Shown: in pieces, positions 38,944 to 62,667 of the stretch | Layout: each line of letters starts with the position of its first letter | Position numbering within the stretch: the first letter of the stretch is position 1 | Virus record (IMG/VR): IMGVR_UViG_3300023296_000646 | Location: 30,981 to 94,980 of that record | Reading direction: 5' to 3' (one strand) | Source of the DNA: a virus | DNA length: 64,000 nt | Program-made: the position numbers and the translations under genes | Notes under the pieces: model-generated | What the model was told of the DNA's origin: nothing | The model's input: only the letters and a program-made list of their open reading frames with translations | Databases searched by the model: none

Positions 38944-38974
38944 ATTGTACGGTAAGTTAAAAAATAATTAATCG

Positions 38975-39336
38975 TGGAGATGCCGGGAGTCGAACCCGGG
39001 TGTTACATTGTTTCAATACAAAGTCGTTCACGTGTGTAGGTAATTTCTTTCCAATTTCCAAAGTCACATTGAATTTTGCGTTATGCAATGTTTAACGAAA
39101 CAAGTTTTTCAGTTCTACATATTTCTTAGAACATGGTTTGTAAAAGTCTTTGATTAAGACCCCAAGTTAGCTTACGCTAATACTTCTTCTACAGGAGTCC
39201 CAACGAGTGCCATGGCATCTTCGAAGGTAAAGTCAGAAAGTGATTCTGCATTTATTTGTTTTTTGATGTTTAAGACCTTTCTAGTCTACACGCACTTCAT
39301 ACCGCTCCAACATAGTCGAATACCAAGTACATCCCC
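38975..39336 (-). ncRNA. ssrA: tmRNA
   Basis: 5' GGGGATG...TTCGAC and 3' CCGGGTTCGACTCCCGG-CATCTCC-A; acceptor stem with G3:U wobble; ATAAAT-GCA resume context; tag ORF 39249-39172; late motif at 39346. Confidence 0.92.
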
Positions 39337-43185: not shown

Positions 43186-43848
43186 CTATACTGTAAATTC
43201 ACTTTCTCTTTCTATTGTTGCAGCCATATGATCTGCCCAATGAAGAATATATGGAATTGTTCTTCTCAATTGCTGATCTTCACCAAACTTACATAGATAT
43301 AATGAATTGCCTTCTTCATACATTCCATCCGTAAGTCTAATGCCAATCATCTCATTTTCAGTAAGAGTAATTCCATACTTTTGAAGAGTAAAGAATGCCC
43401 TATCAGTAACAGGCATAAACTCTAGTTCTGGATTGTGCTTGAAATATTCATTGCGGTTTTCAATATGCCACTTTGAATCGTTAATCATATAGTACATTTC
43501 ATCAGGAGTACCAAGCTTTCCTAGATCATGGTGAAATGCTGCCATTGCCAATTCTTCTGAAGTGAAATTAATTGTTCCACCTAAAGACTTATATACCTTC
43601 GCCAACTTTCTAGAAAACTTTACCACATTTAAAATGTGATCTATATAACCACCCTGATATGCGGCATGAAAGTGTGGTCTCCCTGATGCTGGACTAAGAA
43701 CTAATGATCCACCTAATTCATCTTCTGAATACATATGTTCTAATAGTTCATATCGTTCAGGACTTACCAGTTTTTTGAGAACTGACATAAACTCATTGTA
43801 TCTATCTTCTAACTCGTCGTTAGAGTACCTTACGTAAGGTGGCTTCAT
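43186..43848 (-). CDS. HD-domain phosphohydrolase
   Basis: PAS...FHAAYQGGYIDH...AFHHDLGKLG...LHWAD. Confidence 0.9.
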   Translation of the reverse strand: MKPPYVRYSNDELEDRYNEFMSVLKKLVSPERYELLEHMYSEDELGGSLVLSPASGRPHFHAAYQGGYIDHILNVVKFSRKLAKVYKSLGGTINFTSEELAMAAFHHDLGKLGTPDEMYYMINDSKWHIENRNEYFKHNPELEFMPVTDRAFFTLQKYGITLTENEMIGIRLTDGMYEEGNSLYLCKFGEDQQLRRTIPYILHWADHMAATIERESEFTV

Positions 43849-43851
43849 ATT

Positions 43852-44088
43852 CTAATCCCATTCATATCGCAACATTTGCATGTCGTCGAAATTTGTAACT
43901 TTACTCTTCTTCAGCAGCCTTACAACTTCATCTCTGTTATCTCGCACGTACTTGTGCATATTAACGTTTTTGTGTAAAACTACTTCCATTTTAGTTGGAA
44001 CCATCATAGTGATCGTAAATGTTACGGCTTCTGATGGATCTACGTTAGTATGTTTAGATCTGTTTTTGGATCCCTTAGGACGTCCCAT
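43852..44088 (-). CDS. Small protein with N-terminal AT-hook
   Basis: MGRPKGSKNRSK. Confidence 0.6.
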   Translation of the reverse strand: MGRPKGSKNRSKHTNVDPSEAVTFTITMMVPTKMEVVLHKNVNMHKYVRDNRDEVVRLLKKSKVTNFDDMQMLRYEWD

Positions 44089-47542: not shown

Positions 47543-47566
47543 TGTTTTTCCTCATTTTATGTTTTT

Positions 47567-47640
47567 GTCCACACATCGTTTTATGACCTTAAATCATTCT
47601 AAAGCTCAGAAATTCTGAACTCACGACCAATGAACGCGAG
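47567..47640 (-). ncRNA. Candidate structured cis-regulatory leader RNA, copy 1 (three-way junction)
   Basis: CTCGC-[GTTCATTGGTCGT]-GA-[GTTCAGA att TCTGAGC]-TTTAGA-[ATGATT taa GGTCAT]-AAA-[ACGATGTGTGGAC]; lies between promoter motif 47646 and SD/ATG 47542. Confidence 0.7.
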
Positions 47641-47655
47641 ATGTATATAAGTATA

Positions 47656-47928
47656 TTAGACGTTTACCTTTTCGATGTTTGCTTCATATAATTCTTGACG
47701 TTTTGCCCATTCCTTTCTACGTTCAATCACCTTAGGTGAAATCGTATAGTAGTAATGGTAACATCTGTTGATCCAATCTATATGGTGTTGTTTTGCTGTA
47801 CCAGTTAGCAATTGAGTTTCAATCTGAGAGATATGGTGCAATTTGTATCGTGTGATTTTAACATTACCCCAAACTTCATCACCACCATTTCTATACCACG
47901 CTCTTACTGCATCTATTTTATTTTTCAT
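47656..47928 (-). CDS. Hypothetical protein (90 aa), translationally coupled to the Pth2 stop
   Basis: ORF track; ATGA overlap at 47925-47928. Confidence 0.6.
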   Translation of the reverse strand: MKNKIDAVRAWYRNGGDEVWGNVKITRYKLHHISQIETQLLTGTAKQHHIDWINRCYHYYYTISPKVIERRKEWAKRQELYEANIEKVNV

Positions 47929-48281
47929 TTTGTGTACCTGTCATTTTGATTACCGTTTTTTAATGTGAGAGGAAGGTTCGATGTGTATTTATCGATACCT
48001 TCCCCAATTGCTGCTACAGAACATAATTCACCATCTAAATCTGGCTCATAAAATCCAGTGACTGATATGTCATCGTCTTCACATAACTGTCTTAGTAGTT
48101 TATCTAACCTTATTTCATTTCGTGCGCTTAAACATACTATCGTATTGTTCTTCCACGTATTAAATAAAAATGGATATCGAATAGCGAACTCTGCAACTCC
48201 GTGTGCAGTTTGTGCTACCTGATATCCATCTGGCAAATCTCTTCTAGTAATTACGTAAAATCTTTCTTGTGTCTATGTCAT
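47925..48281 (-). CDS. Peptidyl-tRNA hydrolase, Pth2/PTRHD1-like, with in-frame TAG at codon 3
   Basis: SD AGGA, then ATG ACA TAG ACA CAA GAA AGA TTT TAC GTA ATT ACT AGA AGA GAT TTG = MT*TQERFYVITRRDLPDGYQVAQTAH...IVCL...FYEPDLDGELCSVA...SNLPL. The family's first strand (YVITRRDL) lies upstream of the track's TTG start at 48236. Confidence 0.85.
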
Positions 48282-48298
48282 TGTATTATTCCTATTGC

Positions 48299-48433
48299 TT
48301 ATAAAATTAGAACTATAAATATTATAGTACCTATTGCTATGCATGAATTGTAAATCCATTTTCTAAGATTTCCAGTTTCTAGATCTAAAAAGATCCAGTA
48401 TCCTAGCTATCCTAATTCTTCTTTACTTTTCAT
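48299..48433 (-). CDS. Possible 44-aa membrane peptide with in-frame TAG at codon 9
   Basis: MKSKEELG*LGYWIFLDLETGNLRKWIYNSCIAIGTIIFIVLIL; ATG is 5 nt after the tRNA 3' end. Confidence 0.4.
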
Positions 48434-48437
48434 ATCG

Positions 48438-48508
48438 TGCTCGTACAGAGACTTGAACTCTGATCCAACGCTTTAGAGGCGCATGCTCTACCATTGAGCT
48501 ATACGAGC
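48438..48508 (-). tRNA. tRNA with CUA anticodon (amber suppressor); CCA not encoded
   Basis: GCTCGTA TA GCTC AATGGTA GAGC A TGCGC CTCTAAA GCGTT GGAT CAGAG TTCAAGT CTCTG TACGAGC A: complete cloverleaf, loop C-U-CUA-A-A. Confidence 0.9.
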
Positions 48509-48509
48509 T

Positions 48510-48560
48510 TATAGATACGTAGTACTATTAAACGATTTAATTGTTTAATACGTATCTATA
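48510..48560. other. Long hairpin immediately 5' of the tRNA
   Basis: TATAGATACGTA...TACGTATCTATA (12-bp perfect arms) with inner TATTAAACGATT/AATTGTTTAATA pairing. Confidence 0.7.
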
Positions 48561-48575
48561 TTTGCTAATCAAATA

Positions 48576-49175
48576 TTAAACTTGATCTGCATTTTCTGTT
48601 CTATAGGAAGTTGAACGTGTGCTCATTGAACTGTAGTTTAAAGTAGTACCATCAAATGTTGATGCGAATGAAACTGAATCTGCTTTAGATAACCCATAAT
48701 TGGCTCCACCTTGGGCAAATCCGTCAATTCCTGTGCCAGCAAACATAAATTCCCAACCTAGAGTTTGTTTACCCTGAATTAGTTCTTTAGCTTGATTGGT
48801 GTTGTACTCTCTACTTGAATTTTCTTGACCATCCGTATTAATAAATACCATTGCTCTTCCATCACTATATCTTAATAGTGTTTCTCCAATTGCATCATTC
48901 AATGCAGTACCATATCCACCACAACTATATTCATTTCCAGTTAAAACCGGCGTATCTTGAATATCAATTCTATTGTGAAGTGTTGTAACTTTGTTGTTGA
49001 ACATTATTGTACTTAATATTGCTTCTCCCTTTACTAGCTTTTGTTCCTGAATGAATTCGTTGAAACCACTAATAACACTATCTGTCAGATGCGACATTGA
49101 TGGTGATTGATCCAATATACAAATGATATGTACTGGGCCTTCCTTATTTGCTACTACCTTTTTTGCATTAGCCAT
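48576..49175 (-). CDS. Stand-alone von Willebrand factor A (VWA) domain protein
   Basis: MIDAS motif ILDQSPSM...GGYGTALNDAIG...FINTDGQENSSREY...GWEFMFAG. Confidence 0.9.
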   Translation of the reverse strand: MANAKKVVANKEGPVHIICILDQSPSMSHLTDSVISGFNEFIQEQKLVKGEAILSTIMFNNKVTTLHNRIDIQDTPVLTGNEYSCGGYGTALNDAIGETLLRYSDGRAMVFINTDGQENSSREYNTNQAKELIQGKQTLGWEFMFAGTGIDGFAQGGANYGLSKADSVSFASTFDGTTLNYSSMSTRSTSYRTENADQV

Positions 49176-49200
49176 TGTTTTCTCCTTTCTTTAATTGAAT

Positions 49201-49276
49201 ATCCACCAATCATTTTGTGACCTATCTTTTTATGATCACTCTAAAGTCTTAAAGACTCATAACCAATAGATGCGAG
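49201..49276 (-). ncRNA. Candidate structured cis-regulatory leader RNA, copy 2
   Basis: CTCGC-[ATCTATTGGTTAT]-GA-[GTCT tta AGAC]-TTTAGA-[GTGATC ataaaaagata GGTCAC]-AAA-[ATGATTGGTGGAT]; lies between promoter motif 49282 and SD AAGGAG/ATG 49175. Confidence 0.7.
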
Positions 49277-49304
49277 TTATATATAAGTATATCAAACTTA
49301 GTGT

Positions 49305-61990: not shown

Positions 61991-62227
61991 TCACTTATCG
62001 TCTCCTGTCACAATTGCACCAATTGCAGCAACTAATCCACCTACTAATAGATGGGCAAATGTTGCATTGTCAAATAGTCCCAAAGCTAGCATGCGATAAA
62101 ACGCAAAAATAACTGAAGGGGCTGAAATGATAATGGCAATTACTTTTGTGTTATGGGCTATTTTAGCTGTCATCTTTTTGTTTTGTTTTAGAGCGTTCGT
62201 TCTTTTCCCACAAATTGGGCTTTCCAC
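61991..62227 (-). CDS. Small 2-TM protein
   Basis: ORF track. Confidence 0.5.
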   Translation of the reverse strand: MESPICGKRTNALKQNKKMTAKIAHNTKVIAIIISAPSVIFAFYRMLALGLFDNATFAHLLVGGLVAAIGAIVTGDDK

Positions 62228-62403
62228 GCAGGATCTTTTTGTTTTTCGATTAATGTTGCGTATGCATCATTGTATGCGTGTCTCATAAGATCAATTTCAA
62301 AATTTAGTTCTTCTACTTGATCCTTTTTATCTGCGATCTTTGTCATCAAAGATCTAGTTTTAGTTTGAAGTGCTGGAATTGATAAGTTTTCGTTATGGTG
62401 CAT
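62188..62403 (-). CDS. Small coiled-coil protein
   Basis: ORF track. Confidence 0.5.
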   Translation of the reverse strand: MHHNENLSIPALQTKTRSLMTKIADKKDQVEELNFEIDLMRHAYNDAYATLIEKQKDPAWKAQFVGKERTL

Positions 62404-62430: not shown

Positions 62431-62667
62431 CTAGTAAGTTCTATTTTCCGATTGTTCTTCTTTAGATAACTCTGAAATTTTTCTATCAGTTAATATTGGT
62501 GTAACGGTTAGATTGTTAATAGTTGGAGGTCCTGTAGGATATCCAGTGTTTTCATACCATCCAATCACAACACTCTCACCACCTTCAGAATATTCTAAAG
62601 ATCGTGCCCTAGTAAGTGCTTCTATCAATCCGTCTACTTGTATAAATGAAAGTTTAAATTCTGGCAT
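62431..62667 (-). CDS. Hypothetical protein
   Basis: ORF track. Confidence 0.5.
   Translation of the reverse strand: MPEFKLSFIQVDGLIEALTRARSLEYSEGGESVVIGWYENTGYPTGPPTINNLTVTPILTDRKISELSKEEQSENRTY

What the first reader, a model, noticed from the sequence alone, without database searches (positions are those of the whole stretch)
47925..48508. Amber-gated peptidyl-tRNA hydrolase: Pth2 gene begins ATG-ACA-TAG directly downstream of its own amber suppressor tRNA
Seen: SD AGGA, then ATG (48281), ACA, TAG (48275-48273), then an open frame TQERFYVITRRDLPDGYQVAQTAH... that is a complete Pth2-type hydrolase. The first beta strand (YVITRRDL) lies between the TAG and the only alternative start (TTG 48236, no SD), so functional protein should need read-through. 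A CUA-anticodon tRNA sits about 160 bp upstream on the same strand. The rest of the window uses TAG as a normal stop. Established: two-codon minigenes (lambda bar type) cause peptidyl-tRNA drop-off that Pth must clear, and RF2 autoregulation uses a premature stop as a sensor of release-factor activity. Inference: this is a local stop-codon switch. Pth output would report the competition between host RF1 and charged suppressor tRNA, rising when termination is impaired and falling when the suppressor is sequestered or cleaved. The un-read-through product, fMet-Thr-tRNA, is itself a Pth substrate. Gene callers would annotate only a truncated gene.
Basis: partly seen in the sequence, partly recalled or inferred. 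Interest (0 to 1): 0.95.

Follow-up and report, generated by a model that had tools for sequence, protein, structure and literature searches.

The report
Suppressor-tRNA-gated phage Pth2-like gene
A salt-lake phage that otherwise uses the normal genetic code keeps a UAG stop as the third codon of a small tRNA-hydrolase-like gene, just downstream of its own UAG-reading tRNA; dozens of distant phages, some lab-grown, share this pairing, so the enzyme is probably made only when that tRNA overrides the stop.

Summary
On the minus strand lie tRNA(CUA) 48508-48437, then SD AGGA, ATG 48281, ACA and TAG 48275-48273. A 115-codon frame follows that folds as Pth2 (pLDDT 93.6; TM 0.65-0.73 to archaeal Pth2 and Bit1). 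Starting at TTG 48236 would delete strand beta1.

The phage uses code 11, and 15 of 110 ORFs end in TAG. Contigs of four runs reproduce the stretch exactly.

- Among 50 clusters of phage homologues, 23 have ATG, then 0-12 sense codons, then TAG, before the conserved core.
- One cluster has TAA instead, and its locus carries a tRNA(UUA). None clearly has TGA.
- Every amber-gated locus in this set holds a same-strand tRNA(CUA).
- The seven loci with neither a suppressor tRNA nor an early stop all start plainly.
- The leader ATG is in frame in 23/24 cases (1-2/24 in the other frames). The base after the stop is never U.
- Cultured phages pT24 and XacN1 show the same leader under mis-called starts.

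Best reading (0.62): translation needs UAG read-through by the linked tRNA. What this achieves is inferred, and nothing here is experimental. I found no paper describing it. This scan has reported the same cassette on other genomes.

The parts
48437..48508 (-). tRNA gene with anticodon CUA (amber suppressor); G1-C72, discriminator A, no encoded CCA; the only tRNA in the 95-kb record
   Evidence: ARAGORN; Rfam RF00005 67.1 bits
48282..48436 (-). 155-nt spacer between the tRNA and the gene. It forms a stable long hairpin and has no terminator-like site, so co-transcription is plausible
   Evidence: fold z -3.72; terminator scan
48290..48293 (-). Shine-Dalgarno AGGA, 8 nt before ATG 48281 and 17 nt before the codon after the TAG
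   Evidence: sequence
48273..48281 (-). Leader ATG-ACA-TAG: start codon, Thr codon and the gating amber codon (48275-48273), followed by A at +4
   Evidence: homologous leaders
47925..48272 (-). Pth2-like body, 115 codons plus TGA 47927-47925. Strand beta1 is residues 5-10 (FYVITR). Family-invariant residues are H24, F74, E76, P77, D78
   Evidence: AlphaFold2 pLDDT 93.6; Foldseek; profile vs PDB 2zv3 E 7e-9; alignment A2
48234..48236 (-). TTG, the only canonical start after the TAG. It is the conserved Leu of RxDL, and starting here deletes beta1
47656..47928 (-). 90-codon ORF of unknown family whose ATG overlaps the Pth2-like stop (ATGA). It may be translationally coupled and so co-gated (inferred)
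   Evidence: no PHROG hit
48576..49175 (-). Upstream same-strand gene (phrog_7371, unknown function; DxSxS and TDG motifs seen by eye). Probably the first gene of the same transcription unit
   Evidence: paralogous leader elements bracket the unit

Best explanation
This is a lock-and-key cassette. The phage encodes an amber-suppressor tRNA(CUA) and, 155 nt downstream on the same strand, a Pth2-fold gene whose third codon is UAG.

Proposed steps:
1. Ribosomes start at the SD-served AUG 48281 and add Thr.
2. At the UAG, either host RF1 ends the dipeptide, or the charged phage tRNA inserts a residue into the unstructured N-terminal tail.
3. Only the second outcome yields the full 118-residue protein with strand beta1.

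Shown:
- the anatomy;
- the Pth2 fold;
- the standard code of the phage;
- deep conservation of the early stop;
- its in-frame AUG;
- a +4 base that favours read-through;
- strict co-occurrence with a cognate suppressor tRNA.

Inferred:
- the tRNA is expressed, given its CCA end and charged by a host enzyme;
- read-through is what makes the protein;
- the purpose is to tie the amount of a tRNA-recycling enzyme, and perhaps of the overlapping ORF90, to the activity of the suppressor. In this view the clean-up enzyme is made only where and when stop codons are being overridden.
For: Anatomy.

Fold: AF2 pLDDT 93.6, with beta1 at residues 5-10. Top Foldseek hits are all Pth2 or Bit1. The family profile matches PDB 2zv3 at E 7e-9, aligned from residue 2 of the chain.

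Conservation: of 50 clusters at 80% identity, 23 carry ATG, then 0-12 sense codons, then TAG, then the core with no canonical start before beta1. One cluster has TAA and none clearly has TGA. In the same loci, gene stops are TAA 59%, TGA 25%, TAG 16%.

Further cases:
- huge-phage records;
- soda-lake contigs with ATG ACG TAG and the tRNA upstream;
- MAG contigs;
- L112, L128 and L134;
- cultured Tenacibaculum phage pT24 and Xanthomonas phage XacN1 ORF364.

Leader ATG: it is in frame with the gate stop in 23/24 cases, against 1/24 and 2/24 in the other two frames. Strong SDs sit before the leader ATG and not before the post-stop codon: AAGGAGG + 5 nt in L134, GGAGG + 5 nt in L128, AGAGGA + 8 nt in XacN1, AGGA + 8 nt here.

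Link to the tRNA:
- All 23 amber-gated clusters of the first set have a same-strand tRNA(CUA) in the locus.
- The TAA-gated L053 has a tRNA(UUA).
- The seven loci that lack both a suppressor tRNA and an early stop (six of them one high-GC clade) all start plainly.
- The nearest tRNA to the gene is CUA in 32 of 49 loci. It often lies 6-41 nt after the stop and is often the only tRNA present.

Context: the +4 base is A 17, G 5, C 2, U 0. +4U is the base that lowers read-through (PMC5289835).

Genetic code: no TAG-specific gain in coding density in the window, the whole record or the gated loci.

The TAG is real.
Against: - Nothing is experimental. Expression, CCA addition, charging and the identity of the tRNA's amino acid are all unknown, and body similarity to Lys- or Thr-type tRNAs is weak.
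- 15 of the phage's 110 ORFs end in TAG, 8 of them with +4 A. An efficient suppressor would therefore extend the phage's own proteins, which argues for modest read-through or an unseen cost.
- The codon after the stop is ATT, ATA, GTN or CTN in 19 of 24 cases, which is also what a restart at a near-cognate codon would predict.
- In Bixzunavirus and Myrna mycobacteriophages the arrangement is (A/G)TG TAG GTG, and the SD is spaced for the GTG, so suppression is not required there.
- About half of the family has a plain start yet still sits beside a CUA tRNA. The protein-tRNA link is therefore broader than the gate.
- Pfam membership is below threshold and the canonical GKGK lysine is replaced, so hydrolase activity is unproven.
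- The phylogeny is poorly resolved, so the number of independent origins of the gate is unknown.
Confidence: 0.62

Rival explanations
1. Mini-ORF plus restart. ATG-ACA-TAG would be a separate 2-codon upstream ORF (start-stop or lambda bar-like). The protein would then be made by re-initiation or independent initiation at or after the stop, so the TAG is a regulatory uORF stop and not a read-through site.
For: The codon after the stop is a near-cognate start (ATT 11, ATA 2, GTA 3, GTT 1, CTG 1, CTT 1) in 19 of 24 cases. Mycobacteriophages have TAG directly before a well-spaced GTG. XacN1 has an ATG 4 codons after the TAG.
Against: - It does not explain why the stop is TAG in 23 of 24 cases when TAA dominates gene stops in these AT-rich phages. 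It also does not explain the cognate tRNA linkage or the TAA-UUA pair.
- In this window the codon after the TAG is ACA. In L030, L057, L060, L068, L089 and L128 it is AGA, AAA, ACT, GAC, ACT and GGT. None of these can initiate.
- Here the only restart codon is TTG 48236. It removes beta1 and is simply a conserved Leu.
Confidence: 0.15
2. Incipient code change. The phage would be on the path to reading TAG as sense (code 15), and this TAG would be one of the first sense TAGs, with no gene-specific regulatory meaning.
For: Phage suppressor tRNAs in standard-code relatives are proposed precursors of recoding (bioRxiv 10.1101/2021.08.26.457843). Lak phages, which are recoded, also carry a homologue. 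Two TAG-ended genes of the window are in frame with the next gene.
Against: - The TAG always lies in the first 14 codons of this one family, and never in the body of the ~110-codon cores extracted from 50 clusters.
- It survives indels on both sides and GC contents from 26% to 67%.
- There is no TAG-specific rise in coding density.
- PHROG profiles do not span the other candidate TAGs of the window.
Confidence: 0.08
3. Dead gene or sequencing artefact: a nonsense mutation or assembly error in an otherwise ordinary Pth2-like gene.
For: A single in-frame stop near the start is what a fresh nonsense mutation looks like. Gene callers output only the truncated 103-aa form.
Against: Four runs give identical contigs. 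The same feature recurs in dozens of independent assemblies and in cultured phage genomes. The body is intact and under clear constraint.
Confidence: 0.02

Closest known systems
Stop-codon-recoded phages with their own suppressor tRNAs (TAG read as Gln, 'code 15'; crAss-like, Lak and others; bioRxiv 10.1101/2021.08.26.457843, PMC7886860)
   Same: A phage-encoded tRNA(CUA) lets in-frame UAG codons in phage genes be translated in a host that terminates at UAG. A regulatory role has been proposed for it.
   Different: In those phages many genes, mainly late ones, carry scattered in-frame TAGs and coding density collapses under code 11. Here the genome is standard code, TAG ends 14% of ORFs, and a single TAG sits at a fixed place (codons 2-14) of one small gene family that is physically linked to the tRNA.
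prfB (RF2) autoregulation through an early in-frame UGA
   Same: An early in-frame stop codon makes the yield of a translation-termination or recycling factor depend on how that stop is decoded.
   Different: prfB needs a +1 frameshift, and its product is the factor that reads the stop, which closes a proven feedback loop. Here the bypass is in-frame read-through by a dedicated tRNA. Whether the product acts back on UAG decoding is unknown.
Peptidyl-tRNA hydrolase 2 (PF01981; PDB 2zv3, 3erj, 1wn2, 1xty, human Bit1 1q7s); PTH2 noted in jumbo phages (PMC7824862)
   Same: It has the same alpha/beta fold over the whole length, the Q-x-x-H-A helix motif, and an acidic residue at the D-A-G position.
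   Different: Sequence identity is only 14-23%. The GKGK lysine is replaced by Y/Q and DAG by E-P-D. Pfam scores below its cut-off. The family is nearly confined to phages, with 3 hits in 185,579 species genomes, all on MAG contigs. Activity is untested.
Lambda bar-type two-codon minigenes
   Same: SD, AUG, one sense codon and a stop: an architecture known to cause peptidyl-tRNA drop-off that Pth must clear.
   Different: Here the minigene is in frame with, and continuous with, a long ORF. Leader length varies from 1 to 13 codons in relatives, so the two-codon form is not the conserved feature.
Pyrrolysine and selenocysteine systems
   Same: A dedicated tRNA reads a stop codon inside particular genes.
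   Different: No dedicated synthetase or recoding element was seen. The tRNA bodies differ widely between phages, and the stop lies in an unconstrained tail, so the residue inserted seems not to matter. ARAGORN's 'tRNA-Pyl' label reflects the anticodon only.

Membership tests
Peptidyl-tRNA hydrolase 2 (PF01981) | Pth2 alpha/beta fold over the whole domain | tested here: met
   AF2 pLDDT 93.6, pTM 0.86. The 12 Foldseek hits with E <= 0.001 are all Pth2, Bit1 or relatives, TM 0.57-0.73.
Peptidyl-tRNA hydrolase 2 (PF01981) | Score above Pfam's gathering cut-off | tested here: not met
   12.7 bits against a cut-off of 23, and only for the 103-aa form. Two homologues in the protein database do carry PF01981. 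A profile of 48 phage members hits PDB Pth2 2zv3 at E 7e-9.
Peptidyl-tRNA hydrolase 2 (PF01981) | Active-site residues of archaeal Pth2 (Lys of GKGK, Asp of DAG, nearby His). Which residues are catalytic is from my memory of the Sulfolobus work. | tested here: inconclusive
   In the alignment the His is kept (H24, invariant), Asp aligns with invariant E76, and the Lys is replaced by Tyr/Gln.
Peptidyl-tRNA hydrolase 2 (PF01981) | Hydrolysis of peptidyl- or N-acyl-aminoacyl-tRNA | not testable with these tools
   Needs an enzyme assay or complementation of an E. coli pth(ts) strain.
Stop-codon-recoded (code 15) phage | Many genes with in-frame TAG; low coding density under code 11 that is restored by reading TAG as sense | tested here: not met
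   Coverage is 0.81 under code 11, 0.85 with TAG as sense and 0.86 with TGA as sense; the same holds for the whole record and for gated relatives. TAG ends 13 of 78 ORFs.
Stop-codon-recoded (code 15) phage | Phage-encoded suppressor tRNA | tested here: met
   tRNA(CUA) at 48437-48508.
prfB-type autoregulation | Early in-frame stop in the gene of a termination or recycling factor | tested here: met
   TAG at codon 3.
prfB-type autoregulation | Bypass by +1 frameshift at the stop | tested here: not met
   The body is in the same frame as the ATG and the TAG.
prfB-type autoregulation | The product controls decoding of its own gating stop (closed loop) | not testable with these tools
   Requires biochemistry on the enzyme and the suppressor tRNA.
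Lambda bar-type minigene | SD, AUG, one sense codon, stop | tested here: met
   AGGA, 8 nt, ATG ACA TAG. Relatives have 0-12 sense codons, so this form is not conserved.
Lambda bar-type minigene | Peptidyl-tRNA drop-off and toxicity when Pth is limiting | not testable with these tools
   Needs expression in a Pth-deficient host.

The most novel reading that the evidence does not exclude
The cassette is a self-contained homeostat for viral stop-codon read-through. The Pth2-like enzyme would act preferentially on the acylated suppressor tRNA itself (or on its read-through products). More suppression would then make more enzyme, which lowers suppression. This would be an RF2-like closed feedback loop that lets standard-code phages run a tuned, low level of UAG read-through, with tmRNA as the third member of the kit.
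Probability: 0.13. Interest if true: 0.92.

Novelty: new variant of a known kind. Interest (0 to 1): 0.8.

Why it matters
Suppressor tRNAs turn up in many phages that use the standard code, and their targets are unknown. The XacN1 authors searched for targets and found none (PMC5852040). The phiKp24 authors left the question open (PMC8386662).

This cassette gives a concrete, conserved target that sits next to the tRNA. It has been missed because gene callers start the gene after the stop, as in the 103-aa call here, pT24 gp293 and XacN1 ORF364.

It would be a natural counterpart of the amber-suppression switches built in synthetic biology. It links three translation quality-control parts that phages carry: suppressor tRNA, Pth2-like enzyme and tmRNA. 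It also offers a plausible first step on the road to full TAG recoding.

Because cultured phages of Tenacibaculum, Xanthomonas and Mycobacterium smegmatis carry the module, the idea can be tested directly.

Tried and rejected
Its call also starts at the LPDGYQ Leu.
- The metagenome scan gave only 2 loci, and the scan with L053 alone found only itself. The TAA-UUA covariation therefore rests on one cluster.
- No listed run holding the stretch is on record as RNA.
- Other amber-gated genes were sought in the window (TAGs at 43854, 62433, 55971, 45266, 44745). PHROG profiles do not span any of them, and a crude scan for 'ATG, short leader, stop, long ORF' shows no excess of TAG.
- The mini-ORF MKSKEELG-TAG in the tRNA-gene spacer is not conserved in relatives.
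- An initiator-tRNA reading, with UAG as the start codon, is rejected. The tRNA has G1-C72 and no GGG/CCC anticodon stem, and the in-frame ATG is conserved.
- Amino-acid identity of the tRNA could not be settled. The nearest bodies are Lys- or Arg-type in 19 of 44 suppressors but scores are low, and one blastn hit is to a phage tRNA-Thr.
- Rfam at a loose threshold finds no ribozyme or other family beside the tRNA.
- The HD-domain gene 43186-43848 is not a detectable relative of the HD-like domain fused to Pth2-like in pT24 and XacN1.
- The +4 base of the phage's genuine TAG stops is not protective: A in 8 of 15.
- The alignment of all 48 members was too diverse for the genome scan, so a subset was used.

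Full report
**What is there.**
The window is the last 64 kb of a 94,980-bp IMG/VR virus record (CheckV 51% complete) that recurs in salt-lake metagenomes. Nearly all its genes lie on the minus strand. Reading the minus strand, the features run in this order:
- a gene of PHROG family 7371 (48576-49175);
- a 15-bp hairpin;
- a tRNA gene with anticodon CUA (48508-48437; ARAGORN, Rfam 67.1 bits);
- a 155-nt spacer without a terminator-like site;
- AGGA (48293-48290), 8 nt, then ATG (48281) ACA TAG (48275-48273);
- 115 open codons ending at TGA 47927-47925;
- the ATG of a 90-codon ORF, which overlaps that stop (ATGA).

The only canonical start after the TAG is TTG 48236.

**Is the stop real, and is TAG a stop in this phage?**
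Contigs assembled independently from four runs match 47900-48520 base for base, at depths of 25, 25, 9 and 4. Under code 11, ORFs of at least 100 aa cover 81% of the window. Reading TAG as sense adds no more coverage than reading TGA as sense. TAG ends 13 of 78 ORFs in the window and 15 of 110 in the record. The record holds a single tRNA, the CUA one, and a tmRNA. This is a standard-code phage with one suppressor tRNA.

**What the protein is.**
- Pfam alone does not recognise it: PF01981 scores 12.7 bits against a cut-off of 23. PHROGs 1866 and 3668 ('hydrolase') match at 1e-10 and 2e-9.
- A 48-member alignment (A2) gives an AlphaFold2 model with pLDDT 93.6. Its 12 Foldseek hits with E <= 0.001 are all archaeal Pth2, human Bit1 or related structures, TM 0.57-0.73.
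- The family profile hits PDB 2zv3 at E 7e-9, aligned from residue 2 of that chain.
- Strand beta1 is FYVITR, residues 5-10 after the TAG, so a product started at TTG 48236 lacks it. That TTG is simply the conserved Leu of the RxDL motif. In 49 homologues the codon is CTC, TTA or CTT far more often than a start-capable codon, which occurs in 7 of 49.
- The family keeps the Q-x-x-H-A motif and an invariant F-x-E-P-D-L. It lacks the lysine of the canonical GKGK motif. I therefore call it Pth2-like; its activity is untested.
- It is close to phage-specific: 3 hits among 185,579 species genomes, all on MAG contigs.

**The comparative test.**
A scan of IMG/VR returned 80 loci, which form 49 clusters at 80% identity; with the window that makes 50.
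- In 23 clusters the conserved core is preceded by ATG, then 0-12 sense codons, then TAG, with no canonical start before beta1. Three of these (L023, L057, L060) have a start codon inside or beside beta1 and are ambiguous.
- One cluster (L053) has TAA. None clearly has TGA; L069, whose start is unclear, has a TGA upstream with no in-frame ATG.
- In those same loci gene stops are TAA 357, TGA 149 and TAG 97. A stop drawn from ordinary usage would almost never be TAG 23 times in 24.
- The distances from ATG to TAG and from TAG to the core both vary through in-frame indels. Host GC content ranges from 26% to 67%. Identity between members falls to 28%. The TAG persists through all of this.
- An ATG within 13 open codons upstream is in frame with the gate stop in 23 of 24 cases, against 1 and 2 of 24 in the other frames.
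- Where hosts use strong SDs, the SD serves the leader ATG: AAGGAGG + 5 nt in L134, GGAGG + 5 nt in L128, AGAGGA + 8 nt in XacN1, AGGA + 8 nt here.
- The base after the stop is A 17, G 5, C 2, U 0. U is the base known to lower read-through (PMC5289835).

More cases came from every other source I tried:
- three huge-phage GenBank records;
- two soda-lake contigs with the tRNA upstream and ATG ACG TAG, the layout of this window;
- three MAG contigs;
- three further viral contigs.

**Linkage to the tRNA.**
- All 23 amber-gated clusters of the first set have a tRNA(CUA) on the same strand in the fetched locus.
- The single TAA-gated cluster has a tRNA(UUA).
- The seven loci with neither a suppressor tRNA nor an early stop (six of them one high-GC clade) all have plain starts.
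- The nearest tRNA to the gene is CUA in 32 of 49 loci. It often lies 6-41 nt after the stop codon and is often the only tRNA in 10-20 kb.
- About half of the family has a plain start and still sits beside a CUA tRNA, for example the Bixzunavirus 'peptidyl tRNA hydrolase' followed by 'tRNA-Pyl(cta)'. The protein-tRNA partnership is therefore older or broader than the gate.
- The tRNA bodies are heterogeneous, and one has a long variable arm. This fits a stop placed in an unconstrained tail, where any residue will do.

**Cultured phages.**
- Tenacibaculum phage pT24: gp293 is annotated from an internal ATG. The frame actually begins ATG AAA TAG ATA, and one of the phage's four tRNAs, 2.6 kb upstream on the same strand, is CUA.
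- Xanthomonas phage XacN1: its authors reported two CUA tRNAs and could find no target (PMC5852040). ORF364 is a fusion of an HD-like domain and a Pth2-like domain. Its SD is followed by ATG AAG TAG, four codons before the annotated ATG.
- Bixzunavirus and Myrna: the arrangement is (A/G)TG TAG GTG, with the SD spaced for the GTG, so there the gate is not obligatory.

**Mechanism.**
The best-supported reading is in-frame read-through of UAG by the linked suppressor. The full protein is then made only when the phage tRNA is expressed, matured, charged by a host enzyme and able to compete with RF1. ORF90 may be co-gated through the ATGA overlap.

The purpose is inference. The simplest logic is feed-forward: a tRNA-recycling enzyme is supplied in proportion to stop-codon override. 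This fits with the tmRNA found in 17 of 49 carrier records, in 8 of the 11 that are at least 90% complete, and directly after the tRNA in L134. A closed negative loop, in which the enzyme acts on the suppressor itself, is the bolder variant.

**Weak points.**
- No experiment stands behind any step.
- The phage's own 15 TAG-ended genes, 8 of them with +4 A, would also be read through.
- The post-stop codon is a near-cognate start in 19 of 24 cases. This keeps a uORF-restart model alive for some members. It cannot apply here, where the codon is ACA, nor in six relatives with AGA, AAA, ACT, GAC, ACT or GGT.

**Literature.**
Full-text searches found nothing linking a suppressor tRNA to a Pth gene or describing an amber-gated Pth2. 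PTH2 in jumbo phages is noted without this link (PMC7824862). The phage-recoding preprint does not mention Pth.

This scan's own notes list the same cassette on many other genomes: 382 notes in at least 238 genomes hold the search words. The follow-up agents reached the same reading. One later check priced the observation at 85/100 and the self-contained-switch reading at 20/100. I reached my reading before opening those notes. They are not independent evidence.

Noticed in passing
window 38972-39336 (-): A phage-encoded tmRNA (Rfam 75.5 bits) with an unusually long tag, AESLSDFTFEDAMALVGTPVEEVLA. tmRNA scores over Rfam's cut-off in 17 of 49 records that carry the Pth2-like gene, and in 8 of the 11 that are at least 90% complete. 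In L134 the order is gated Pth2-like, tRNA(CUA), tmRNA.
   Followed up: partly
window 49176-49300 and 47543-47661 (-): Two paralogous leader or promoter-like elements of about 120 nt (43-nt core 79% identical). The exact word ATATACTTATATA occurs only at these two places in the window. They bracket the unit phrog_7371 gene, tRNA(CUA), Pth2-like gene, ORF90, and probably mark two transcription starts. Another first-stage note calls them a riboswitch-like leader; I did not test any structure.
   Followed up: partly
window 48510-48560 and 48340-48436 (-): A 15-bp hairpin lies directly 5' of the tRNA. In the tRNA-gene spacer there is a stable long hairpin (z -3.7) that contains a mini-ORF, ATG 48433 MKSKEELG, TAG 48409-48407, then 35 more open codons. 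No counterpart was found in relatives.
   Followed up: partly
L018, L027, L035, L038, L040, L045, L070 (viral contigs, GC 58-67%): The Pth2-like clade without a suppressor tRNA sits directly beside tRNAs that ARAGORN reads with A at the wobble position (aat, aag, aaa, aac). This is unusual for bacteria and phages. In L018 and L027 the ORF runs straight out of such a tRNA.
   Followed up: no
L149 (Tenacibaculum phage pT24, 194137-195036) and L156 (XacN1 ORF364): In two cultured phages the Pth2-like domain is fused to an HD-like domain (motifs HDxGKP and RHFPNHA). The HD-like domain is C-terminal in pT24 and N-terminal in XacN1. Both annotated starts lie downstream of an ATG-AAR-TAG leader.
   Followed up: partly
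window 43852-44088 / 43186-43848 and 62431-62667 / 62188-62403 (-): Two TAG-terminated genes are in frame with the next gene, so read-through would fuse them (221 and 80 extra codons). The first pair would join a 78-aa ORF to an HD-domain phosphohydrolase. PHROG profiles do not span the TAG, so this may be chance.
   Followed up: partly
L091 (MAG contig labelled Methanobacterium, 170 kb): A gated copy (ATG ACA CAT TAG GTA) with its tRNA(CUA) about 20 nt upstream lies on a contig binned to a methanogenic archaeon. This may be an archaeal virus or a binning error.
   Followed up: no
L002, L008, L015, L019, L020, L112: In several gated loci a tRNA-Cys(GCA)-like gene sits immediately before the tRNA(CUA), 5-7 nt apart in L002 and L112.
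   Followed up: no
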